A stretch of DNA of 64,000 nucleotides, taken from IMG/VR virus record IMGVR_UViG_3300013131_000036, positions 14,720 through 78,719 of that record. The stretch is one strand, 5' to 3'. A model generated the notes under the pieces. It had not been told where the DNA came from. It was given only the letters and a program-made list of their open reading frames with translations, and ran no database searches. This document shows positions 12,202-61,427 of this stretch, one piece after another; within the stretch, counting starts at the first letter, position 1, and every line of letters starts with the position of its first letter. Source of the stretch: a virus. The translations under genes and the position numbers were made by a program.

Positions 12202-12882
12202 ATGAGTGATGGTCTAAAGCTGATCGTTGAACGTCCCGCATCGAATGATGATTTCGAATATGTGTTGGAGGAAAAAAATCCAAATCAACCTGCTACTCTT
12301 TATATCAAAGGTCCTTACATGATGGCCGAACAAGCCAATCGCAACCGGCGCATTTACAATCTGGAAGAAATGGCCAAGGAAGTGGGTCGTTACACCAGCG
12401 AAATGATCCGGAATAATCGCAGCATGGGCGAACTGAATCATCCCCAAACTCCGGAAGTGAATCTGGAACGGGTTTGTCACATGGTCACGGAACTGCGTCA
12501 GGACGGAAATATTTTTTACGGCAAGAGCAAAGTTCTGAGCACACCCATGGGCATGATTGTGAAGAGCTTGATTCAAGACGGAGTCAAGGTCGGCATGAGC
12601 AGCCGCGCCCTGGGAAAACTGACAGAAGCAGGTAACGGCACCAACAAAGTAACTGATCTGCGTTTGGTCGCAATTGATTGTGTTGCGGATCCGTCGTTCC
12701 CCAAGGCATTTGTGGATGGTATTTTGGAAAGCAAACAATTTGTTTTGAAAGAAAGCGGACAATATGAAGAAGTGTATGACAGCTTCGGAGATGCGCTTCG
12801 TAATTTGCCAAAAAATGATGTGGAGAATTTCCTGAAAGAACAGGTGGTTTTGTTCTTTAGAAAACTCAGTTCAAAAAGCTAA
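12202..12882 (+). CDS. gp21: Prohead core protease (T4 gp21)
   Basis: NRNRRIY, GELNHP, TPMG, GMSSRALG, DCVADPS.P.AFV.GI.E motifs. Confidence 0.95.
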   Translation: MSDGLKLIVERPASNDDFEYVLEEKNPNQPATLYIKGPYMMAEQANRNRRIYNLEEMAKEVGRYTSEMIRNNRSMGELNHPQTPEVNLERVCHMVTELRQDGNIFYGKSKVLSTPMGMIVKSLIQDGVKVGMSSRALGKLTEAGNGTNKVTDLRLVAIDCVADPSFPKAFVDGILESKQFVLKESGQYEEVYDSFGDALRNLPKNDVENFLKEQVVLFFRKLSSKS

Positions 12883-13083: not shown

Positions 13084-13965
13084 ATGAGCAAAAACGTTGT
13101 AGAAGTACTCAAAGAAGCCACAAAGGATATTCTCACTGAGCAAACACTGAACGAAATCCAGCAAGCTTTTGAAGCTTCTGTAAACGAAAAAGTAAAAATA
13201 CACGTTGAAAAAGCTCTGGCTGAACAAGATGAAGATCACAGCAAAAAGCTGGAAGCCCTTGTTGAAGCCATCGATAAAGATCACGTTGCCAAGCTGAACA
13301 AGGTTGTGGCCGCTATCGACGAAAATCACAGCGGTAAACTCAAGGCAATTGTTGAAAAGTATCAAACTGCCCTTTCTGGTGAAGCCAAAAGCTTCAAAAA
13401 TGAAACCGTCAATGATATCAGCACCTATCTGGAAGCTTATCTTGACGAAGTTGTGCCTGCCGAGGATATCAAAAAGGCTGTTGCCAATCGCAAAGCCAAT
13501 GACACCCTCTCCAAGGTTCGCAATCTTCTCGCCGTTGATGCCGCGATTGCTCAAGACAGCATTCGTGAGGCAGTAATGGACGGCAAGAAACAATTAGATG
13601 AAGCTCGTAAAGAGCTTGAAAGCGCTAAAGGGCGCGTAGTAGTTCTTGAAAAAGAACTGAATAAGACACAAGCCTCGCTTCTGCTTGAACAGAAGACACG
13701 GGAGCTTCCGGAGAACAAAAAGAAGTTCATCCAAAAGCTTCTGGGCAACAAGGATGTGTCCTTCATCAATGAAAACTACGATTACACCCTTAAACTCTTC
13801 AATAAAACTGAAGAGGAGCGTCTTTCAACCATTCGCGACGAAGCCACTAAGCAAACCGAAACTGTGGATCGCGTAGTTGTTGAGGAAGCTGCAACTGAAA
13901 AGTCTGCCGCCTCTGAAGACAACGACGCCACAAACGGTTATCTTAGCGAACTGAGTCGCTGGTAA
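13084..13965 (+). CDS. gp22: Prohead core scaffold protein (T4 gp22-like)
   Basis: Coiled-coil, Glu/Lys/Ala-rich, located between the protease and capsid genes, with high-expression codon bias. Confidence 0.85.
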   Translation: MSKNVVEVLKEATKDILTEQTLNEIQQAFEASVNEKVKIHVEKALAEQDEDHSKKLEALVEAIDKDHVAKLNKVVAAIDENHSGKLKAIVEKYQTALSGEAKSFKNETVNDISTYLEAYLDEVVPAEDIKKAVANRKANDTLSKVRNLLAVDAAIAQDSIREAVMDGKKQLDEARKELESAKGRVVVLEKELNKTQASLLLEQKTRELPENKKKFIQKLLGNKDVSFINENYDYTLKLFNKTEEERLSTIRDEATKQTETVDRVVVEEAATEKSAASEDNDATNGYLSELSRW

Positions 13966-14044: not shown

Positions 14045-15541
14045 ATGAGTAAGCGTATCGCTCCTCCCACGAGTTACATCAATCAGTCTCGCGCCAAGAC
14101 CCTCCTTGAGAAGTGGGCACCCGTTCTTGATTACACCTCGGATTCCGTCCGGGCCATCGAAGACGATCACACACGTCTCAACACCGCCATGCTCTTGGAA
14201 AACCAAGAAGCTTGGTGCATGATTAACGAAGATAATACCGCCGGTAACGGTGGTGTCTTCGGTAGTGGAGCTTCTATCGGTGCGGCATTCAATCCTCCTG
14301 GCAAGATCACCTCGGGTGACAACTATGCCCAGGGTGATGCTCGTCTGCCGAAGATTCTGATTCCGATGATTCGTCGTACATTCCCCGAACTAATCACCAA
14401 CGAGATCGTAGGCGTACAGCCCATGAGCGGTCCGGTGGGTCTTGCTTTCGCTCTGCGCTACAAGTACCTTGGCAAACAGCTGGGTAACACAGGCGTGGAC
14501 GGCAGCGGAACCAACGCGAACGGCTCCTTGGGCGTTCCTTACAGCCAAGCGAATGGCGCTGAATTGGGTTACCAATTCCTCGACACACGCTTCACTGGTA
14601 CATCGTCTTCTCAGCTCTCCGGTGCTTCCCCTTCGCAGCCGTATTCGAATCAATTTGAAATACTTGGCAGCGATCAGGGCGTTGCCCAGATTCTGAGCCA
14701 GTTCGAACTTACCGGTCGTATTCCTCAGATTGAGGTTTCTTTCGAGAAAACCGCAGTCGAAGCCGGAACACGCAGGCTCGCCGCTCGCTGGTCCGTAGAA
14801 CTTGAGCAAGACTTGAAGAATATGAATGGTATCGACATCGACACAGAGTTGACCAATGCTATGAGCTATGAGCTACAAGCAGAAATCGACCGTGAGATGA
14901 TCATTCGTATGATTCAGGTTGCCCTCAATGCAGGCTACGGCTCAGGATATTCCGTATGGTCCCCGGCTTCCGCAGACGGTCGCTGGCTAGTTGAACGCAA
15001 TCGCGACTTCTACCAGAGACTGATCATCGAAGCCAACCGTATTGCAGTTCGTAACCGTCGTGGTGCCGCCAACTTTGTTGTCGCCACACCCCGCGTTTGC
15101 GCAATTCTGGAAATGCTTCCTGAGTTCCAGTGGGTTCCGGTCCAAGGCAATGTCAACACTCAACCTGTTGGCGTGGCCAAGGTCGGTAATCTCGGTGGTC
15201 GGTTCAATGTGTATCGTGATACACGCACGGACGCTCAAGCCGAAAACCAGGGTGCATATCCTTGGTCCGGCACGAATCCGCAGCGCACAACCCGTCTCGA
15301 GTACGCCCTTCTGGGCTACAAGGGTCCGGAGTATTACGACACAGGTATTATCTATTGCCCGTACATCCCAGTCCTCGTTCAGCGCACGATTGGTCCTAAC
15401 GACTTCTCGCCTCGCGTTGGATTGATGACTCGTTACGGCGTTGTGGATAATATTTTCGGGGCTAACCTGTACTACCACGTCATTATCGTCGTGGGTCTGG
15501 GTCAGCCGTTCACACCGGCCACACAAAGCGTCTACTTCTAA
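14045..15541 (+). CDS. gp23: Major capsid protein (T4 gp23)
   Basis: LLEKWAPVL, GVQPMSGPVGLAFALR, A.TR.L.A.WSVELEQDLK, EIDRE, YCPYIP, PRVGLMTRYG. Confidence 0.98.
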   Translation: MSKRIAPPTSYINQSRAKTLLEKWAPVLDYTSDSVRAIEDDHTRLNTAMLLENQEAWCMINEDNTAGNGGVFGSGASIGAAFNPPGKITSGDNYAQGDARLPKILIPMIRRTFPELITNEIVGVQPMSGPVGLAFALRYKYLGKQLGNTGVDGSGTNANGSLGVPYSQANGAELGYQFLDTRFTGTSSSQLSGASPSQPYSNQFEILGSDQGVAQILSQFELTGRIPQIEVSFEKTAVEAGTRRLAARWSVELEQDLKNMNGIDIDTELTNAMSYELQAEIDREMIIRMIQVALNAGYGSGYSVWSPASADGRWLVERNRDFYQRLIIEANRIAVRNRRGAANFVVATPRVCAILEMLPEFQWVPVQGNVNTQPVGVAKVGNLGGRFNVYRDTRTDAQAENQGAYPWSGTNPQRTTRLEYALLGYKGPEYYDTGIIYCPYIPVLVQRTIGPNDFSPRVGLMTRYGVVDNIFGANLYYHVIIVVGLGQPFTPATQSVYF

Positions 15542-52848: not shown

Positions 52849-54260
52849 ATGATTTTATATTTTGTTTTCTTGGTTTCAATTTGTTCTTTTTGATATATTT
52901 CACACCTTTTTTCAAAGTGTCTTTTTCCGTAGTAAAGTTGGTCGGCTAGATCAATAAGCATAAGTTTTTCCTTGGAGGGATGTAATCTTAACCCACGCCC
53001 TATGCTTTGCAATAGACGTATTTTGGCTTTTCCTGCGTTTGCTAAAATAATATTGTGAAGGTTTTTGATATCGATTCCAGTTGCAAAAATACTGCTTATG
53101 GCAATGCAAACAACGTTGGCGGCCTGCTCCATGATGCGCCGAATTTCATTTCGGGATTCAACTTCAACCTCGCCCCGTATAAAAAACACCTTTTTGTTTT
53201 CACAAATTTTTTCCAAAACCTTTTGCAAATCCAATCCATGCTGAATTCGATCTATCAAAACAAGCGTATTATTTTGCAAATTACAACTAAGTTTGCTAAT
53301 AATTTTATTTCGGGAGTCATTGTTTATTATAAATTCATATTCTTGCCGGTACCTTTTCATGTCATCTGGTGAACACCATTCCGGTTGATTTTCATAATCC
53401 AGTTCAATCACGTTACAGATTGCTTGGGAAAGATACTCTTTAAGATCCACACTGGTTTTTTTGTAAATTACCGGTCCTATTTTCCCCTCTATGCAAAGCA
53501 CATCTTCTTTCTCATCCGGTAAAGTTCCTGTAAAACCAAACCGTATGTTGGCATCTATCTTGTCCAAAACCTTGTTGATTTTGTTTCCTCGTTTGTATTT
53601 GTGTGCTTCATCAATGATTATCACATCACAATCTGTTAATTTTTCCTCCCCTCGAGCATTCAATACACCGATATTGGCAATCACCACCTGGCAATCTCCG
53701 TCAAAATCATTTTCCCCGGTATATTTTTTCACATCACATCTCAATCCACACTTTTCAAATTCTTCATAAACCTGTTCCACAAGACCCAAATCCGGCTCCA
53801 ACACAAGAATTTTTTTGGCCAGACTGTTTTTCAAAAAATTGTGACACAACAAAGCCATCACATATGTTTTTCCGCCTCCGGTGGCAACTTCAAATATTCC
53901 CCGACCAAACCGAAAAGCTTTCTCGCACATTTCTTTTTGATAGTCCCGGGGTTCATATTGCAAATATTCCACCTGAATTTTTGATCTTATAGGATTGGCT
54001 TTGAGCAAAACCTCGGAATCGACTGTTACCTGCTCCAATCCCAGCGTTTCGGTCATGTATCTGAAGATGGAAAAGAACAATCCCAGATCAAACCTTCCTG
54101 ATGGCGTTATGGCATACAACCGATCCGCAACATAATAACCTTTGCGGCGCATATGCTTTGCCGTTTTGTTTTCACACGAAAAATGATTTCGAATCATCCG
54201 AATGTGCGGAGATTCTATCATCCCAAACCTTTTGGATTTGTCCAGATAGATACGGTTCAA
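52845..54260 (-). CDS. uvsW: SF2 DNA helicase UvsW
   Basis: PRDYQ, ATGGGKT, IIDEAH, GFTGT, GIDIKNLHN, LQSIGRGLR. Confidence 0.95.
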   Translation of the reverse strand: MNRIYLDKSKRFGMIESPHIRMIRNHFSCENKTAKHMRRKGYYVADRLYAITPSGRFDLGLFFSIFRYMTETLGLEQVTVDSEVLLKANPIRSKIQVEYLQYEPRDYQKEMCEKAFRFGRGIFEVATGGGKTYVMALLCHNFLKNSLAKKILVLEPDLGLVEQVYEEFEKCGLRCDVKKYTGENDFDGDCQVVIANIGVLNARGEEKLTDCDVIIIDEAHKYKRGNKINKVLDKIDANIRFGFTGTLPDEKEDVLCIEGKIGPVIYKKTSVDLKEYLSQAICNVIELDYENQPEWCSPDDMKRYRQEYEFIINNDSRNKIISKLSCNLQNNTLVLIDRIQHGLDLQKVLEKICENKKVFFIRGEVEVESRNEIRRIMEQAANVVCIAISSIFATGIDIKNLHNIILANAGKAKIRLLQSIGRGLRLHPSKEKLMLIDLADQLYYGKRHFEKRCEIYQKEQIETKKTKYKII

Positions 54261-54649
54261 TTTGTTTCGAGTTTGATTAGTTCAACCAGATTCTTGATGT
54301 CAAAGCTTGCCGAGCTTAGAATCTTTTCACTTTTTTCACATATTTCCAATATCAGTTCGTTGTTTTTTATCTTTTTGTCTATTTCTGAAATGATTTCATG
54401 ATCTGAAGCTAGTTTTTCCGCAGAAATCAAACTGAGTTTTACCGGCGATTCCCGGTTGATTTCATCCACTACATTTCGCAACATGCGTTTTCGTTCTGCA
54501 TGCAAATCGCCAAGTTCCCGTTTTGTTTGAATGTAAATTGTTGCATACCTGTGTTTGATGCTGGGCAACATCAATTGTTTTTCTTTCAAATTAAGTTCAT
54601 CAAACTGAAGAAACTGTTTTAGTTCTTCCAGCAGTTTTTCTGGTTCCAT
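54257..54649 (-). CDS. uvsY: Recombination mediator UvsY-like protein
   Basis: Helical ~130-aa protein coupled to uvsW, ending FDIKN.VE..KLE. Real start MEPEK at 54649. Confidence 0.65.
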   Translation of the reverse strand: MEPEKLLEELKQFLQFDELNLKEKQLMLPSIKHRYATIYIQTKRELGDLHAERKRMLRNVVDEINRESPVKLSLISAEKLASDHEIISEIDKKIKNNELILEICEKSEKILSSASFDIKNLVELIKLETN

Positions 54650-54654
54650 TAATA

Positions 54655-54662
54655 TATAAATA
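54655..54662 (+). promoter_or_regulatory. T4-type late promoter TATAAATA
   Basis: Exact consensus 6 nt before ATG 54669. Confidence 0.75.
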
Positions 54663-54668
54663 CTTGAT

Positions 54669-54905
54669 ATGGGTCTTTTTTCAAACATTTTTACCAAAAT
54701 ACTAAACGAAGACAACGTGGCAGGCGTTGGGGGTGTGTTTGGGAGCGGACCCAGCATCGGTGGGGTTTTTAACCCCCCATCTCAAATCAGCAGCGGGGAC
54801 AATTATGCCCCGGGCGATGCCCGCATTCCTTTTGCTTTTGGTGCAGTTAAAAGGGGCAAGAAAAAGAAAAAAAAGAAGATTCTCATACAACGCCGGAGGT
54901 TGTAA
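54669..54905 (+). CDS. 78-aa paralog of the major capsid protein N-terminal arm with a poly-Lys tail
   Basis: Residues 13-54 match gp23 residues 61-102 at 32/42 positions; has its own late promoter. Confidence 0.85.
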   Translation: MGLFSNIFTKILNEDNVAGVGGVFGSGPSIGGVFNPPSQISSGDNYAPGDARIPFAFGAVKRGKKKKKKKILIQRRRL

Positions 54906-54908
54906 TCC

Positions 54909-55328
54909 ATGAGTGATAATGGTCACTGGATTTGTGAAAATTTCGAACCAGAAAGCTTTGGTTTCATTTATTTGATAACAAATCTTAAAAACAACCGCAA
55001 ATATATTGGAAAAAAACAGCTTCAATTTCGCAAAAAAAGAAAACTGAAGAGCCGCAAAAACAGTAAAATTTCATATTCTGAAAGTGATTGGAAAACCTAC
55101 ACAGGTTCTTGCCGGGAACTTAACGAGGATATTGAAAAATATGGTAAAGAAAATTTCCGGTTTGAAATACTTCGGTTTTGCCGCAGCAAATGGGAACTGG
55201 GTTATGAAGAGATCAGGTTGCAAATTCAGAACGAAGTGATAAAAAATCCGGAGTATTACAATGGAATTATTAATTGCCGTCTCGGAAAGCCAAAGGAGTT
55301 CTGGTTTAAAGATGCAGAAAAAGGATAA
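54909..55328 (+). CDS. GIY-YIG endonuclease-like protein
   Basis: FGFIYLITN..N.RKYIGKKQ, SDWKTYTGS, F.FEIL, E, YN..I. Confidence 0.85.
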   Translation: MSDNGHWICENFEPESFGFIYLITNLKNNRKYIGKKQLQFRKKRKLKSRKNSKISYSESDWKTYTGSCRELNEDIEKYGKENFRFEILRFCRSKWELGYEEIRLQIQNEVIKNPEYYNGIINCRLGKPKEFWFKDAEKG

Positions 55329-55851
55329 CATTGTATTTGTGGATTTTTGGGATGCGTTTTCAAACAAACTGGAAACAAAGATTTTGGATTCTTGTCACAA
55401 GTTTAAGCTGCTTGAAAAGCCCCTGAAGAAGAATCGGGACGCCAAAAACATACTGGTGTATCAATTGGCAAACCTTTTGCTGTCCAATTTTGTGATCAAA
55501 CGTCAACCTGAAGACATTGTGTTTGTTGTTTCGGAACAAAGCTTGAAAGATTTGGAAATCTGTGAGCATTTTGATTCGGATGAACTTTTTGATGTTTGCA
55601 TCAAGATTCTTAAAAAATTTGAAAAATATCTGAGCTTTACTGTTATTGAATATGAAGGATCTTTCGTTCAATTCAGCAAATTGATATCCTCGGATCCTGT
55701 TTTTTATAAAACAATTGCCAGCAAAATTATAAACTCCATTCTGATTCAAAGCAGTAAAAATTTCAGCATGAAGGACATACAAAAGGTTTTAAAAGAATAT
55801 AACCTGTCTAATTCCGTGTTAAAAAAGAATTATTCAATGAAATTAGAGTAA
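55312..55851 (+). CDS. Hypothetical protein
   Basis: Likely start MQKKDNIVFVD; co-directional with neighbours. Confidence 0.5.
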   Translation: MQKKDNIVFVDFWDAFSNKLETKILDSCHKFKLLEKPLKKNRDAKNILVYQLANLLLSNFVIKRQPEDIVFVVSEQSLKDLEICEHFDSDELFDVCIKILKKFEKYLSFTVIEYEGSFVQFSKLISSDPVFYKTIASKIINSILIQSSKNFSMKDIQKVLKEYNLSNSVLKKNYSMKLE

Positions 55852-55859
55852 ATACTTAC

Positions 55860-56300
55860 ATGGCAAGATTTCATAAGTTGTTGGAACAAGAATATCTTAA
55901 ATTAGACATCAAACCGCCAAAATTGACTGAACTGCAACAAAATGTGGTGGACAAAATGGTTTCGTCCGGCAAAGCCAAATATGAAGGTCTTAAAAAAATG
56001 AATGCGGTTGTCAGCTATGATGTGGATGGTGAAAAGGGTAGATTTAAAATAACTCCGGACGGCAAAGTGGAAAAACATGCAGAAGAAGATCAGGAAGAAT
56101 TTAGCGGTCTTACCAAATTAACAGGGGGGAGTTTGACTCCTAATGATTTAAAAATAGCTCGTATTTTAGCAGGAGGAAATGCAAAAGGAGGAATTCTTTT
56201 CAATAGAAATCCTCAAAAACAAATTGAACAAGCACTCGGCGCAATTACAGGAAAATTAGCAAAAAAACTTAAAAAAGTTGCAGACGGAATAAAAGTATGA
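55860..56300 (+). CDS. Late protein, probably capsid-internal
   Basis: AGTAAATA 5 nt before the ATG; MARFHKLLE leader. Confidence 0.55.
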   Translation: MARFHKLLEQEYLKLDIKPPKLTELQQNVVDKMVSSGKAKYEGLKKMNAVVSYDVDGEKGRFKITPDGKVEKHAEEDQEEFSGLTKLTGGSLTPNDLKIARILAGGNAKGGILFNRNPQKQIEQALGAITGKLAKKLKKVADGIKV

Positions 56301-56632
56301 AATTCGATGATATTTTAAAAAATAAATACGGTCTTCTTAACGAACAGCCCCCGGCAACACTGGATGCTGCTGAAGATGTTGCTCAACCAGAGGAACCTGC
56401 AGCGGAACAACCGGCTGCTGAAACACCTGCTGAAGAAGCACCCAAGCTTGATACACAAGGTGTTCAGTATCTTGTTGATCTGATTCGTAAAGCTTTGCTT
56501 ATCGACAAACTGGATGATCGTGAAAAAGCAGATTTGATTAATTTAACAATTGATGCGGGCAATGCTTTTAATATTTTAGAAAATAAAATTATACCAATTC
56601 TTAATAAATATATTCCCGAGACTACCTCTTGA
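56297..56632 (+). CDS. Acidic late protein, probably capsid-internal
   Basis: MKFDDILKNKYGLLNE leader followed by an EEPAAE-rich segment. Confidence 0.55.
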   Translation: MKFDDILKNKYGLLNEQPPATLDAAEDVAQPEEPAAEQPAAETPAEEAPKLDTQGVQYLVDLIRKALLIDKLDDREKADLINLTIDAGNAFNILENKIIPILNKYIPETTS

Positions 56633-58644: not shown

Positions 58645-59814
58645 ATGATCAGTTTTAAAAATATAAAAACTATTTTAAATGAAAAGTTGGTTTTGAAAAA
58701 AAGACTCGCTCCTGAAGGCAAAACCATTTTTATAGCGACCAGCGATCTACAGGACCCAAAACAATCTGGTAATGAGACATTTACAAATAAAGATTTTATT
58801 AAAACCCTGGGATTTAAATGGAATGCTCTGGAACGCCGATGGGAAACAGGCGCTTTGGACGAATCCGAAGCATCAGATTTTGTAAAAAATACAATCAAAA
58901 AACTGAATGAATTCAACAAAGAAGAACTTACCGACACAACTGTTGCTGAATTTGGCGGGGAAAATTTGGAGGATCGTTTCAAAAAATTCGTGGAACTTTT
59001 GAAAAGTGGCGTATTGAATGTAAAAAACAGCAAGGAATATCAAGAATATGTTCAGTTTCAAAAACGTTTTCGCAATTATTCATTCAACAACCAGATTCTA
59101 ATCTTTCTGCAAAGAAAAAATGCTTCCAGAGTGGCCGGAAAAAACACATGGTTTCGACAGTTCGGCCGAAAAATAAAACCCGGAGAACGGGCCATACTGA
59201 TTTATGCTCCGATCATGGTCAAACAAAAAGACGGAGACATAAGTGTGGGAGAAGATCCTACGGCCGGTATTAAGGAAAAAGTGATGCGATTCCGTCTTGT
59301 GCCTGTTTTTGATATCAGTCAAACCGAACCTATTCCTGGCCGGGAAAAAGAAATTCCCGAGGAAATACAATGGTTTGATGACACGCCGCTAAATGAACGC
59401 ATGCGCACCATATTTGATGCTGTGAAACAATATGCAGGGGAAAACAACATCAAAGTGGACATCAAGGCAGAAGACGAACTGGGTGGTGCCCGGGGCGTCA
59501 GCCGGGGCGGAACCATTGAGCTTGTTAGTGAAAATTTAAGCACATTAATCCATGAAGTTGCCCACGAAATGTTGCATTGGAAAGATCGGGAAAATGTTCC
59601 GGAACGGAAAATACGAGAACTTCAGGCAGAAGGAGTGGCAAATTTTGTTTTGAGTGAATATGATATTCCCGCTCCTCACACTGAAAAGTATCTGGCTCTT
59701 TGGCAGATCGATCCGGAACATATCACCAGCAACTTTAATATTATAAAAGACACTTCAAAAACCCTTATAGAATATATAAATAATCATGTGGAACAAAAAG
59801 GTGCAAATCTATGA
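58645..59814 (+). CDS. ArdC-like ssDNA-binding domain plus zincin (MPTase/ImmA-like) metallopeptidase
   Basis: FRNYSFNNQILI..Q...ASRVAG...W...GR.IKPGERAI.I.AP, VFDISQT, TLIHEVAH, ELQAEGVA. Confidence 0.85.
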   Translation: MISFKNIKTILNEKLVLKKRLAPEGKTIFIATSDLQDPKQSGNETFTNKDFIKTLGFKWNALERRWETGALDESEASDFVKNTIKKLNEFNKEELTDTTVAEFGGENLEDRFKKFVELLKSGVLNVKNSKEYQEYVQFQKRFRNYSFNNQILIFLQRKNASRVAGKNTWFRQFGRKIKPGERAILIYAPIMVKQKDGDISVGEDPTAGIKEKVMRFRLVPVFDISQTEPIPGREKEIPEEIQWFDDTPLNERMRTIFDAVKQYAGENNIKVDIKAEDELGGARGVSRGGTIELVSENLSTLIHEVAHEMLHWKDRENVPERKIRELQAEGVANFVLSEYDIPAPHTEKYLALWQIDPEHITSNFNIIKDTSKTLIEYINNHVEQKGANL

Positions 59815-60965
59815 AAAACATTAATGTAGAATATGATATGGATGAAAATGATCTGGATATCATTCTCCGGGATATTGTAAAAGAACATAAAACAAAACCC
59901 AATCTGGATTATATTTTTGAAAATTATAGCAATCTGCTTTCCGTATTCAAACCGCATGTGATCAAGAAAGCATTGGATGGTATTGAAGAGGATTACACAC
60001 ACGCTCCTAATGAAGGTGAGGAATCCGGAACAACTTTATCCGTGAGTCCAAAAGCTGCTCTGGCTAAAGCAAAAGAAGCAATAAAAAATTTAGAAAAAGA
60101 TAATCAGCAGTTGGCAAAAATAATAGATGCCCAACCTGATTTGATTAAAGTGATGATTCGAACCAGAGATTTGTTTCCTTACAAATTTCGGGGAGACAGT
60201 GAAGTGATACAATTTATTAAAAAAGCAATTGGCCCGGAAGCTTTTAAACTGGCATATCACGCCGAAAACCAAGCCAATCAATTTGAAGATGAACCGCACG
60301 ATATTGAAAGTGATCCGGAAAGCATGAAAGAAGAAAGCACTTTTACCCGAGCTTATGACAAGCTCATGGGTAATCTGAATGAATCTCATGTTCCAGAAGG
60401 TGATGATGAAGGTCGCATGCTTGAATATCAGCTTCGTACTATTCGGGATGAAATTGATGAATTGCTTCCTCTCATTCAACCCAACGATCAGTTTGAAGGT
60501 TGGGTGCAAAGCAAGGTTACTTTGGCAAAAGATTATGTTTCGGCTGTTAAAGATTATCTGACACAACATCACGCTGAATATCATAGCGATGATGATGGTG
60601 ATCGGGGCAGTCATGATTTGAGTGATGATGCGGGGGCTTTGGCCAGTGCAGGTTACGGAACGGATGAAGATTACGGTTATTACGGGAGAAATGAAGACAA
60701 CGAAGAAGTAAAAGAAGGTGTAGTCATGGAAAAGAAAGGTGCGCGTTGCACCAAGGTAACCGGTCAAATGCAATCAACACGCAGTGATAAAAAATACATG
60801 CGTTGTGCCAGGGTTGGTGGAAAGCTCAAACGAGTACATTACGGTGATCCTAAAAGAAGGATTAAAAAGTCTAATCCTAAAAAACGTCGTTCATTTCGGG
60901 CACGTCATAAATGTTCTACTGCCAAACCCGGTACGGCAAAATACTTTAGTTGTAAAAATTGGTGA
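59811..60965 (+). CDS. Multi-module late protein with a basic Cys-containing C-terminus
   Basis: EGRM...QL and WVQSKVTLAKDY modules; C-terminal YGDP...RRSFRARHKC......KYFSCKNW, a pattern I recall from T4-like phage hypotheticals. Confidence 0.6.
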   Translation: MKNINVEYDMDENDLDIILRDIVKEHKTKPNLDYIFENYSNLLSVFKPHVIKKALDGIEEDYTHAPNEGEESGTTLSVSPKAALAKAKEAIKNLEKDNQQLAKIIDAQPDLIKVMIRTRDLFPYKFRGDSEVIQFIKKAIGPEAFKLAYHAENQANQFEDEPHDIESDPESMKEESTFTRAYDKLMGNLNESHVPEGDDEGRMLEYQLRTIRDEIDELLPLIQPNDQFEGWVQSKVTLAKDYVSAVKDYLTQHHAEYHSDDDGDRGSHDLSDDAGALASAGYGTDEDYGYYGRNEDNEEVKEGVVMEKKGARCTKVTGQMQSTRSDKKYMRCARVGGKLKRVHYGDPKRRIKKSNPKKRRSFRARHKCSTAKPGTAKYFSCKNW

Positions 60966-60972
60966 TAAGTCT

Positions 60973-61158
60973 ATGAATTTCAACGACTTAGTAACTCAAC
61001 TTCTTGAAGAAGCCACCAAGAAAAAAGCCAAACGGGATGCTTGTTATCACAAGGTAAAGCGCCGGTATAAAGTTTGGCCTTCGGCATATGCTTCTGGGGC
61101 GTTATCAGCGTGCAGAAAACGCGGTGCGGCTAATTGGGGTAAGAGCAAAAAGAAATGA
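60973..61158 (+). CDS. Small basic protein
   Basis: MNFNDLVTQLLEE leader; DACYHKVK.RYKVWPSAYASGAL..CRK.GA.NWG. Confidence 0.65.
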   Translation: MNFNDLVTQLLEEATKKKAKRDACYHKVKRRYKVWPSAYASGALSACRKRGAANWGKSKKK

Positions 61159-61427
61159 CCCAAAACTTTGATAACTTGGTTGATTCCCTGATCAACGAAG
61201 CCAAGTTTTCTCTTGAAAAGAAATATGGTCTTCGTGGTTGGTTCATGCGCAATAAAGGTAAAGGTTGGGTAGACTGTCGTACCGGTAAACCCTGTGGTCG
61301 TCAGAAGGGAGAAAAGCGCAAGGGGTATCCGGCCTGTCGTCCCACTAAAAGCATGTGCAGCAGCCGTAAACGTCTAAAAAAAACCAAAAAGCGTATCAGT
61401 TGGAAAAAAGGCGCACCTGCCAAATAG
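61155..61427 (+). CDS. Small basic Cys-rich protein
   Basis: MTQNFDNLVDSLINE leader; LRGWF, WVDC.TGKPCGR, YPACRP. Confidence 0.65.
   Translation: MTQNFDNLVDSLINEAKFSLEKKYGLRGWFMRNKGKGWVDCRTGKPCGRQKGEKRKGYPACRPTKSMCSSRKRLKKTKKRISWKKGAPAK

What the first reader, a model, noticed from the sequence alone, without database searches (positions are those of the whole stretch)
54669..54905. A stand-alone mini-gene encodes a copy of the major capsid protein's mature N-arm fused to a poly-Lys tail
Seen: residues 13-54 (NEDNVAGVGGVFGSGPSIGGVFNPPSQISSGDNYAPGDARIP) align without gaps to gp23 residues 61-102 (NEDNTAGNGGVFGSGASIGAAFNPPGKITSGDNYAQGDARLP, nt 14225-14350) at 32/42 identity, 40 kb away. The codons differ heavily at synonymous sites (GAT/GAC, AAT/AAC, TCT/AGC, TCG/AGC), so the conservation is at protein level and this is not a recent DNA duplication. 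Similarity starts at an I/L-N-E site. The ORF has its own TATAAATA, a capsid-targeting-like leader and a C-terminal KRGKKKKKKK..RRR. Known: T4 gp21 cleaves gp23 and internal proteins after [ILV]-x-E. Inference: after processing, this peptide has the same new N-terminus as mature gp23. It could supply an N-arm in trans at symmetry-mismatched sites (portal or vertices), tether DNA to the inner capsid wall through its basic tail, or act as a decoy for capsid-sensing defence systems. I know of no described equivalent.
Basis: partly seen in the sequence, partly recalled or inferred. Interest (0 to 1): 0.9.

Follow-up and report, generated by a model that had tools for sequence, protein, structure and literature searches.

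The report
Small gene copying the capsid arm
An uncultured freshwater T4-like phage has a small, conserved late gene that joins a head-targeting leader and a protease cut site to a copy of its own capsid protein's flexible N-terminal arm and a lysine-rich tail; phage T4 (gene 61.1) and cyanophage Syn9 (gp190) carry equivalent, uncharacterised genes that match their own capsid proteins, so this may be an overlooked head component.

Summary
ORF 54669-54905 (78 aa) matches residues 59-102 of the window's gp23 at 32/44, E 3e-21. Only 10 of 31 identical residues share a codon.

It is a real gene. There are 38 close homologues, 329 cluster representatives and 249 viral-contig loci. dN/dS is 0.08-0.29, and most loci have a late TATAAATA just upstream. 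It always sits between uvsY and a conserved GIY-YIG gene, so it is not a fragment carried by a homing endonuclease.

In marine relatives the same N-terminal module carries variable C-terminal domains. The arm copy tracks each lineage's own gp23. One lineage shares a private GNQFPSQND variant. I confirmed that T4 gp61.1 matches T4 gp23 (E 1e-9) and Syn9 gp190 matches Syn9 gp23 (E 2e-10), while cross-clade matches are weak or absent.

Best reading (about 0.5): a processed internal head protein like the T4 internal proteins. Its arm copy reuses gp23's contacts in the prohead and its basic tail binds DNA.

"No described equivalent" is partly wrong, because T4 61.1 exists as an unstudied ORF. This scan noted the same kind before on other DNA.

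The parts
54655..54662 (+). T4-type late promoter motif TATAAATA, ending 7 nt before the ATG
   Evidence: Read directly. Exact TATAAATA lies at -13 to -19 in 22 of 33 distinct upstream regions of orthologues, and most of the rest have near-variants. Promoter function is inferred.
54669..54905 (+). Mini-gene (78 aa plus stop): leader, cut site, gp23 arm copy, Lys run, KILIQRR
   Evidence: 38 homologues of 63-122 aa. dN/dS is 0.08-0.29 in unsaturated pairs.
54669..54710 (+). Leader MGLFSNIFTKILNE (residues 1-14), similar to a capsid-targeting sequence and ending in the L-N-E cut motif
   Evidence: E14 is invariant and D15 nearly so in 39 sequences. Similar conserved leaders occur on ORFs at 56297, 58645 and 60973. 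Cleavage is inferred.
54711..54830 (+). Copy of the gp23 N-terminal arm (residues 15-54; motifs GGVFG and D-x-YAPGDAR-x-P)
   Evidence: Gapless match to gp23 63-102. YAPGDAR is invariant in the module alignment A2.
54849..54878 (+). Basic run KRGKKKKKKK (residues 61-70); contains an A8 tract at 54867-54874
   Evidence: A run of four or more K/R follows the module in 126 of 145 family members that carry the YAPGDAR motif.
54876..54896 (+). C-terminal KILIQRR (residues 70-76), resembling gp23 KILIPMIRR (103-111)
   Evidence: Sequence comparison. A hydrophobic-Q-[RT]-R motif follows the module in 68 of 145 members.
14045..15541 (+). gp23-type major capsid protein (498 aa)
   Evidence: Pfam PF07068 2.5e-88. 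It is the only Gp23-family gene in the 78.7-kb record.
14219..14377 (+). gp23 residues 59-111: putative cut site I-N-E62|D63, the arm that the mini-gene copies, and KILIPMIRR
   Evidence: E62 and Y94-P102 are invariant in 18 gp23 sequences.
12202..12882 (+). gp21-type head maturation protease (226 aa)
   Evidence: phrog_207, 5.4e-60.
13084..13965 (+). Probable gp22-type scaffold (293 aa, coiled-coil, many [LI]-x-E sites), lying between the protease and gp23
   Evidence: Assigned by position and composition only. No PHROG hit.
54257..54649 (-). UvsY-like gene, divergent neighbour; its start is 19 nt from the mini-gene start
   Evidence: Pfam UvsY 1.1e-5 and phrog_231 3.5e-10. Syntenic in all loci.
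54909..55328 (+). Conserved 139-aa GIY-YIG (SegE-type domain) gene directly downstream
   Evidence: Pfam PF19835 3.8e-32. Present next to, or 1-2 kb downstream of, the mini-gene in most loci, at 52-57% identity even where uvsW is only 41-44% identical.

Best explanation
The mini-gene encodes a small head-internal protein of the same kind as the T4 internal proteins. It is made late and enters the assembling prohead. The gp21-type protease probably cuts it after L-N-E14, giving a roughly 64-residue peptide that begins DNVAG, just as mature gp23 would begin DNTAG. Its first part is a co-evolving copy of the gp23 segment that, in T4, is flexible and faces the scaffolding core before expansion. 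I infer that this copy uses the contacts gp23's own arm makes in the prohead, with the scaffold core or the shell, to place or hold the protein there. I infer that the Lys/Arg tail binds packaged DNA. In marine relatives the same module carries other cargo domains. Shown here: the gene is real, it is under selection, it sits behind a late-promoter motif, its module structure is conserved, it co-varies with gp23, and it has T4 and Syn9 equivalents. Inferred: cleavage, packaging, the binding partner and DNA binding.
For: The family is real and conserved: 38 homologues, 329 cluster representatives at E<=1e-3 and 249 viral-contig loci, always between uvsY and the GIY-YIG gene.

Selection is purifying: dN/dS is 0.08-0.29 in unsaturated pairs.

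A late-promoter motif is conserved upstream.

The genome has a gp21-type protease. The [ILVMF]-x-E motif occurs within the first 35 residues in 122 of 145 members.

Similar leaders are conserved on an ArdC-like protein (MISFKNIKTILNE), on an acidic 111-aa ORF and on a 61-aa ORF in the same 7-kb stretch. This matches the way T4 tags its internal proteins (PMC9026906).

Relatives fuse the module to a ParB-like domain, a Cys-rich domain and other domains. Two of these domains occur in the window as separate genes, one with its own leader of the same type.

The arm copy tracks the genome's own gp23. In the 7-genome score matrix only 3 of 5040 permutations reach the diagonal, and with one representative per clade 2 of 720 do. 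G017 shares GNQFPSQND-x-AYAP with its gp23 at 18/21 residues but only 5 identical codons.

T4 gp61.1 matches T4 gp23 57-93 at 17/37, E 1e-9. Syn9 gp190 matches Syn9 gp23 at 17/27, E 2e-10. The window's mini-protein gives no alignment to T4 gp23.

In T4 the copied segment (66-105) is disordered and internal in the unexpanded head and is thought to contact the scaffold core (PMC9546572).
Against: There are no virion, prohead or expression data for any member. The T4 head inventory in PMC9026906 does not list gp61.1.

Other proteins of this phage have the leader without the arm copy. The leader may therefore be enough for targeting, which would leave the arm copy with a different job.

Syn9 gp190 has almost no leader; it starts MKEE.

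T4 61.1 has no TATAAATA in the 100 nt upstream.

Among close relatives (G000 against G001) the mini-protein is no closer to its own gp23 than to the other genome's. Co-variation is therefore seen only between lineages, and old gene conversion could produce it.

The cut site in both proteins is inferred from a three-residue motif.
Confidence: 0.5

Rival explanations
1. Trans-acting arm. After cleavage the peptide occupies arm-binding sites in the gp23 lattice that no gp23 arm fills, around the portal or the vertices, or it takes part in the expansion switch. It would then be a minor structural part of the shell, with its tail pointing at the DNA or the portal.
For: The copy covers the whole segment that switches from disordered to ordered on expansion in T4 (PMC9546572), probably through KILI..RR. 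It would have the same new N-terminus as mature gp23. It tracks its own gp23 across lineages. Syn9 gp190 starts almost directly with the arm copy.
Against: The variable cargo domains fused behind the module in relatives are hard to fit to a lattice part. In T4 the arm and N-fist end up on the outer surface, where a DNA-binding tail would serve no purpose. No solved T4 head structure contains a gp61.1 chain; the only PDB matches to gp61.1 are T4 gp23 chains. The gene is present whether the genome has gp24 (T4) or shows none (this record), so it is not a substitute for a vertex protein.
Confidence: 0.2
2. Assembly or maturation modulator. The arm copy competes with gp23's arm for the scaffold core or the protease in the prohead. 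This would tune shell growth, head size or the timing of cleavage, and the protein need not stay in the virion.
For: It shares the cut-site context and arm with gp23. In T4, contacts between the gp23 N-terminal region and the scaffold influence head length (PMC9546572), and IPIII mutants give aberrant heads (PMC9026906). A late-promoter motif is present.
Against: The conserved Lys run and the cargo domains have no role in this model. There is no evidence of any assembly phenotype.
Confidence: 0.12
3. Decoy or anti-defence peptide. It is a free copy of a capsid segment that a host immune sensor recognises. It either soaks up the sensor or is delivered with the DNA to block it.
For: Host systems that sense the capsid protein exist, for example Lit, which senses the Gol region of T4 gp23 (from my knowledge of that system). 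Neighbouring leader-tagged genes include an ArdC-like anti-restriction protein. Lineage-specific tracking of gp23 is what a decoy would need.
Against: The copy stops just before the region that corresponds to Gol (T4 93-122). No sensor of the N-arm is known. The leader, the cut site and the poly-Lys tail point to the head interior. The family is conserved from coliphages to cyanophages to uncultured freshwater phages, which is broader than a host-specific arms race would predict.
Confidence: 0.07
4. Non-functional remnant: a piece of a foreign gp23 gene carried along with the adjacent GIY-YIG homing endonuclease.
For: The next gene has a SegE-type GIY-YIG domain, and T4 seg genes are mobile.
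Against: The uvsW-uvsY | mini | GIY-YIG arrangement is kept in most of the roughly 60 loci that carry the mini-gene, including clades whose uvsW is only 41-44% identical. The mini-gene is intact everywhere and under purifying selection. The copy matches the resident gp23, not a foreign one.
Confidence: 0.01

Closest known systems
T4 gene 61.1 product (54 aa, 'hypothetical protein'; phrog_1823, long form phrog_2086)
   Same: Same architecture. It has a leader like the internal proteins' targeting sequence (MKTFKEFIKE) ending in x-K-E, then a gapless copy of the phage's own gp23 across the cut site and arm (17/37, E 1e-9), then a Lys run (IPKKKK). Across the PDB its only matches are T4 gp23 chains (best E 0.0067). 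The leader and EDMVAG match the module profile of this family (hhalign 86%, E 4.6e-6 over 17 columns).
   Different: The window's protein does not hit phrog_1823. T4 61.1 lies next to primase gene 61, not uvsY. It has no TATAAATA within 100 nt upstream. It lacks the YAPGDAR and QRR motifs and ends in an acidic stretch. Its function is unknown: only two papers in the library name it, and only in passing.
[quoted passage not shown]
   Same: They are small and basic, with an N-terminal propeptide of 10-19 residues ending in a gp21 cut motif. Several such genes are clustered. Cargo is variable and exchangeable between related phages (PMC9026906).
   Different: There is no sequence homology. No internal protein is known to copy the capsid protein's arm. 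Packaging and injection have not been shown here.
N-terminal arm and N-fist of T4 gp23* (residues 66-105)
   Same: The mini-protein is homologous to the equivalent segment of its own gp23 and would share its processed N-terminus.
   Different: It has no HK97-fold body (no Pfam Gp23 hit), so it cannot be a shell subunit. It carries a poly-Lys insertion.
Synechococcus phage Syn9 gp190 (174 aa; labelled 'major head protein' in RefSeq, plain 'gp190' in GenBank)
   Same: Its N-terminus copies the Syn9 gp23 arm (17/27, E 2e-10) and is followed at once by a basic run (KFRGKIKKK). It lies two genes upstream of primase 61, close to where 61.1 lies in T4.
   Different: It has almost no leader (MKEE). 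It has a further 140 residues of unknown function. It shows no detectable similarity to the window's mini-protein.
Gol peptide of T4 gp23 (residues 93-122), sensed by the Lit protease
   Same: It is a short segment of the gp23 N-terminal region with a biological role of its own (from my knowledge of that system; not tested here).
   Different: The arm copy ends where the Gol-equivalent region begins, apart from the short KILI..RR motif. No link to defence has been shown.

Membership tests
T4-type internal head proteins (targeting-sequence-bearing, gp21-processed) | N-terminal propeptide of about 10-19 residues that targets the protein to the prohead core | tested here: inconclusive
   A 14-residue amphipathic leader is present and conserved. 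Leaders of the same pattern occur on three other ORFs nearby and are conserved in relatives. Whether it targets anything cannot be tested here.
T4-type internal head proteins (targeting-sequence-bearing, gp21-processed) | [L/I]-x-E cut motif at the end of the propeptide, and a gp21-type protease in the genome | tested here: met
   L12-N13-E14, with E14 invariant in 39 sequences. A gp21-type protease is present, phrog_207 5.4e-60. Actual cleavage is not testable here.
T4-type internal head proteins (targeting-sequence-bearing, gp21-processed) | Basic mature protein | tested here: met
   The predicted mature part (residues 15-78) has 12 K/R against 4 D and no E. 126 of 145 members have a K/R run after the module.
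T4-type internal head proteins (targeting-sequence-bearing, gp21-processed) | Physically present in the head and ejected with the DNA | not testable with these tools
   No proteomic or RNA data are available. No RNA run was listed.
T4-type internal head proteins (targeting-sequence-bearing, gp21-processed) | Sequence homology to IPI, IPII or IPIII | tested here: not met
   No Pfam or PHROG family at E<=0.01.
T4 gp61.1 family (phrog_1823 / phrog_2086) | Match to the family profile | tested here: not met
   The window's protein and five diverse relatives hit neither phrog_1823 nor phrog_2086.
T4 gp61.1 family (phrog_1823 / phrog_2086) | Remote homology by profile comparison | tested here: inconclusive
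   hhalign of gp61.1 against module alignment A2: probability 86%, E 4.6e-6, but only 17 columns covering the leader and EDMVAG. gp61.1 against the window's gp23 60-103: E 0.005.
T4 gp61.1 family (phrog_1823 / phrog_2086) | Architecture: leader, cut motif, copy of the genome's own gp23 arm, Lys run | tested here: met
   Window pair; T4 pair.
T4 gp61.1 family (phrog_1823 / phrog_2086) | Position next to primase gene 61 | tested here: not met
   Here, and in every locus that still includes the upstream flank, the gene follows uvsY. T4 61.1 abuts gene 61.
gp23 / HK97-fold major capsid proteins (PF07068) | HK97-fold body matching the Gp23 profile | tested here: not met
   No Pfam hit for the mini-protein. 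Similarity is limited to gp23 59-111.
Gene fragment hitch-hiking with a mobile GIY-YIG homing endonuclease | Sporadic presence linked to presence of the endonuclease; decay of the fragment | tested here: not met
   Synteny is constant in distant clades and the ORF is intact and under selection.

The most novel reading that the evidence does not exclude
T4-like phages in general (Straboviridae including T4 itself, cyanophages, and large uncultured freshwater and marine clades) carry an overlooked head component: a free-standing, co-evolving copy of the capsid protein's conformational-switch arm. It would act in trans on the shell, the scaffold or the portal during assembly or maturation, and some lineages would also use it as a handle to load cargo enzymes into the head.
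Probability: 0.25. Interest if true: 0.85.

Novelty: new variant of a known kind. Interest (0 to 1): 0.7.

Why it matters
T4 head assembly is one of the most thoroughly studied assembly pathways, and its parts list is regarded as complete. This work points to a small gene that copies the capsid protein's own N-terminal arm. It is kept under selection, it tracks the resident capsid protein from coliphage T4 to cyanophages to uncultured lake and ocean phages, and no paper in the library searched mentions it. That suggests an unrecognised contact in prohead assembly or maturation. Because T4 gene 61.1 is an equivalent, the question can be tested directly in a standard genetic system. If the arm copy works as a packaging or anchoring handle, it would be a second natural route for loading proteins into T4-type heads, alongside the known targeting sequence. 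That would be of use to groups who load T4 capsids with proteins.

Tried and rejected
1. Homing-endonuclease cargo fragment: rejected, because the uvsY | mini | GIY-YIG order is conserved in distant clades and the gene is under selection.

2. tblastn of the mini-protein against 50,697 phage records found no match at E<=0.01. The low-complexity filter was on and the clade has no cultured member.

3. Pfam and PHROGs returned nothing for the mini-protein. Pfam also returned nothing for most cargo domains of relatives. Only a ParB-like signal appeared, by tblastn and PHROGs.

4. Complex prediction with gp23 62-498 in two copies plus mini 15-78, using my own alignments: no verdict (score 0.00, below the mark, controls not run). 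This is not evidence either way.

The long metagenome contigs holding P0015, P0034, P0037 and P0007 could therefore not be used, and only 7 same-record mini/gp23 pairs were available, plus T4 and Syn9.

6. A search of five more gp23-bearing records for the mini-gene found only gp23. In three of them (G028-G030) the expected position lies off the contig; the other two are short fragments.

7. Fine-scale co-variation between the close genomes G000 and G001 was not seen.

8. Sequencing runs: no RNA holder was listed, and read laying was not used.

9. Literature searches for gp61.1, 'gene 61.1' and capsid-arm paralogues found nothing on function.

10. The module profile A2 has no match in the PDB.

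Full report
**What is there.** The + strand ORF 54669..54905 encodes 78 residues, MGLFSNIFTKILNE-DNVAG...GDARIP-FAFGAV-KRGKKKKKKK-ILIQRRRL. The window's major capsid gene is 14045..15541 (498 aa, Pfam Gp23 2.5e-88). BLASTP gives one gapless alignment, mini 11-54 against gp23 59-102, 32/44 identical, E 3e-21. A search of the whole 78.7-kb virus record finds only these two places. Over E14-P54, 31 of 41 residues are identical but only 10 codons are. The copy probably extends through residue 111, with the Lys run as an insertion.

**It is a real, old gene.** A word-indexed search of 5.8 billion proteins gave 38 homologues of 63-122 aa with no frameshifts. A profile of the N-terminal module found 329 cluster representatives at E<=1e-3 among 1.84 billion. 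A scan of IMG/VR gave 249 loci.

In every locus that carries the mini-gene and still includes the upstream flank, the order is uvsW(-) uvsY(-) | mini(+). The 139-aa GIY-YIG gene (+) follows directly or 1-2 kb downstream in most of them. This holds even in marine clades where uvsW is only 41-44% identical and the GIY-YIG protein 52-57%. That removes my first rival, a gp23 fragment dragged along by a homing endonuclease. The GIY-YIG gene is a fixed neighbour.

Among freshwater orthologues, dN/dS is 0.08-0.29 for unsaturated pairs. The mean pN/pS is 0.22 in the arm copy, 0.30 in the leader and 0.31 in the tail. An exact TATAAATA lies 13-19 nt before the start in 22 of 33 distinct upstream regions, and most others have near-variants.

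**Anatomy of the family.** The family has three conserved elements:
- an amphipathic leader ending in [ILVM]-x-E followed by D/E/S;
- the arm copy, with GG-x-FG and an invariant YAPGDAR;
- a K/R run, often with a hydrophobic-Q-[RT]-R motif.

In marine relatives the same N-terminal module is followed by a conserved acidic linker ([FY]LTGEE[DN]EE) and then by different C-terminal domains:
- a ParB-like domain (L024, 222 aa);
- a Cys-rich CxxC domain (L050, L062, L082);
- a KTSAYKSGAIVRCR-type domain (L032, L061, L067);
- an RRKSFRARHKC...YWSCKKW domain (P0044);
- a 282-aa form (L073).

The last two small domains also occur in the window itself. One forms a separate gene with its own leader of the same type (60973-61158, MNFNDLVTQLLEE|A). 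The other forms the C-terminal end of the 384-aa protein at 59811-60965. An ArdC-like protein (58645-59814, MISFKNIKTILNE|K; Pfam ArdcN 2.5e-5) and an acidic ORF (56297-56632, MKFDDILKNKYGLLNE|Q) carry leaders of the same pattern, and these are conserved in relatives. A gp21-type protease is present (phrog_207, 5.4e-60). This is the pattern of T4 internal proteins: a short targeting propeptide removed by gp21 at [L/I]-x-E, with cargo that varies between related phages (PMC9026906).

**Co-variation with gp23.** Seven records hold both genes. In the score matrix of mini against gp23 arm, only 3 of 5040 permutations reach the diagonal sum. These genomes fall into about four lineages, so the figure overstates independence. 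The clearest case is G017. Its mini-protein and its gp23 share a private variant, GNQFPSQND-x-AYAP, at 18/21 residues but only 5 identical codons. That is not a recent conversion. Between the close genomes G000 and G001 there is no such tracking.

Earlier notes of this scan said that T4 gene 61.1 is the same kind of gene, so I tested this. T4 gp61.1 reads MKTFKEFIKE-DMVAGDSGG...TSGAV..GPEQIPKKKKEE. It aligns without gaps to T4 gp23 57-93, across the known E65|A66 cut site, at 17/37 and E 1e-9. Across the PDB its only matches are T4 gp23 chains. It matches the leader and EDMVAG part of the family profile (hhalign 86%, E 4.6e-6, 17 columns). It weakly matches the window's gp23 at the same place (E 0.005).

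I also found that cyanophage Syn9 gp190 begins MKEE-MMTTGYTGGDAATGPTAGYDPVM-KFRGKIKKK. This copies Syn9 gp23 49-75 at 17/27, E 2e-10, and the gene lies two genes upstream of primase 61.

In the nine-genome matrix, each divergent lineage's mini-protein scores best with its own gp23: T4 82 against at most 45, Syn9 103 against at most 32, and G017 124 against at most 83. With one representative per clade, 2 of 720 permutations reach the diagonal. The window's mini-protein gives no alignment to T4 gp23.

**How it most likely works.** In T4, gp23* residues 66-105 are disordered and lie inside the unexpanded head. They are thought to contact the scaffolding core. After expansion they become the externalised arm and N-fist, which make intercapsomer contacts (PMC9546572). 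The mini-protein copies this segment of its own gp23.

My best reading (about 0.5) is a late, gp21-processed internal head protein. Its arm copy reuses gp23's prohead contacts to place or hold it there, and its basic tail binds DNA. The cargo fusions in relatives fit a delivery or anchoring handle.

There are weaknesses. No member has been seen in a virion. The leader alone may be enough for targeting, since other proteins of this phage have it without the arm. Syn9 gp190 lacks a leader. T4 61.1 has no nearby late-promoter motif.

The rivals are:
- a trans-acting arm in the lattice or at the portal (0.2);
- a modulator of assembly or cleavage (0.12);
- a decoy for capsid sensors (0.07).

A complex prediction gave no verdict and says nothing either way.

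**Known or new.** The papers I could search name gp61.1 only in passing. Nothing describes a capsid-arm copy. The ORF family is catalogued only as phrog_1823 and phrog_2086, both 'unknown function', and the window's protein is too divergent to hit them. I file it as a new variant of the leader-tagged internal head proteins and not as a proven member. This scan has noted the same kind of gene on other genomes, including T4 itself.
- the fixed uvsY-side position in this clade;
- the cargo fusions;
- the G017 co-variant with saturated silent sites;
- the KILI..RR extension of the copy;
- the Syn9 gp190 case;
- the refutation of the homing-endonuclease idea.

**Limits.** No RNA run was listed.

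Noticed in passing
window 54909-55328: The 139-aa SegE-type GIY-YIG gene after the mini-gene is not sporadic like a homing endonuclease. It lies next to, or 1-2 kb downstream of, the mini-gene in most loci, at 52-57% identity in clades whose uvsW is only 41-44% identical. It overlaps the next ORF (55261-55851) by 68 nt. It may be a domesticated nuclease with a fixed role.
   Followed up: partly
window 56297-56632, 58645-59814, 60973-61158, 61155-61427: A run of + strand genes share an amphipathic leader ending in L-[LI]-x-E: MKFDDILKNKYGLLNE, MISFKNIKTILNE (ArdC-like, Pfam ArdcN 2.5e-5), MNFNDLVTQLLEE and MTQNFDNLVDSLINE. The first three leaders are conserved in relatives. This looks like a cassette of head-targeted, possibly injected, proteins.
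   Followed up: partly
window 59811-60965 (C-terminal ~60 aa) and 60973-61158; relatives P0044, L032, L061, L067: Two small Cys/Lys-rich domains stand alone, or on another protein, in this phage. They are RRRSFRARHKC...YFSCKNW and a C...SAYASGA..CR type. In marine relatives both are fused directly behind the arm-copy module. The same cargo is therefore used with different tags.
   Followed up: partly
window 54655-54671: TATAAATA ends 7 nt before the ATG and there is no Shine-Dalgarno sequence. If transcription starts as at T4 late promoters, the mRNA would be leaderless or nearly so. The spacing is similar in most orthologues (-13 to -16).
   Followed up: no
window 54867-54874: There is an A8 tract inside the Lys run, and the number of Lys codons varies among close relatives. 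Such tracts are prone to polymerase or ribosome slippage, so tail length may be heterogeneous.
   Followed up: no
L024, L032, L040, L043, L050, L062 (marine relatives), just after the K run: A conserved acidic linker, [FY][LA]TGEE[DN]EE, lies between the basic run and the variable cargo domain. It could be a second processing site or a hinge.
   Followed up: no
NC_008296.2 154429-154953 (L111:1504-2028): Syn9 gp190 is labelled 'major head protein' in RefSeq. It is a 174-aa protein that shares only about 27 N-terminal residues with gp23. GenBank calls it just gp190. The RefSeq name is misleading.
   Followed up: yes
records G000, G001 against G007, G013, G016: Gene order differs between clades. 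In the freshwater records gp23 lies 35-40 kb upstream of the mini-gene on the same strand. In the marine records the mini-gene lies about 37 kb upstream of gp23.
   Followed up: no
window 14045-15541 and the whole record G000: The 78.7-kb record has no second Gp23-family gene (no gp24-type vertex protein), and none lies beside gp23 as in T4. The record is only about 37% complete, so absence is not proven.
   Followed up: partly
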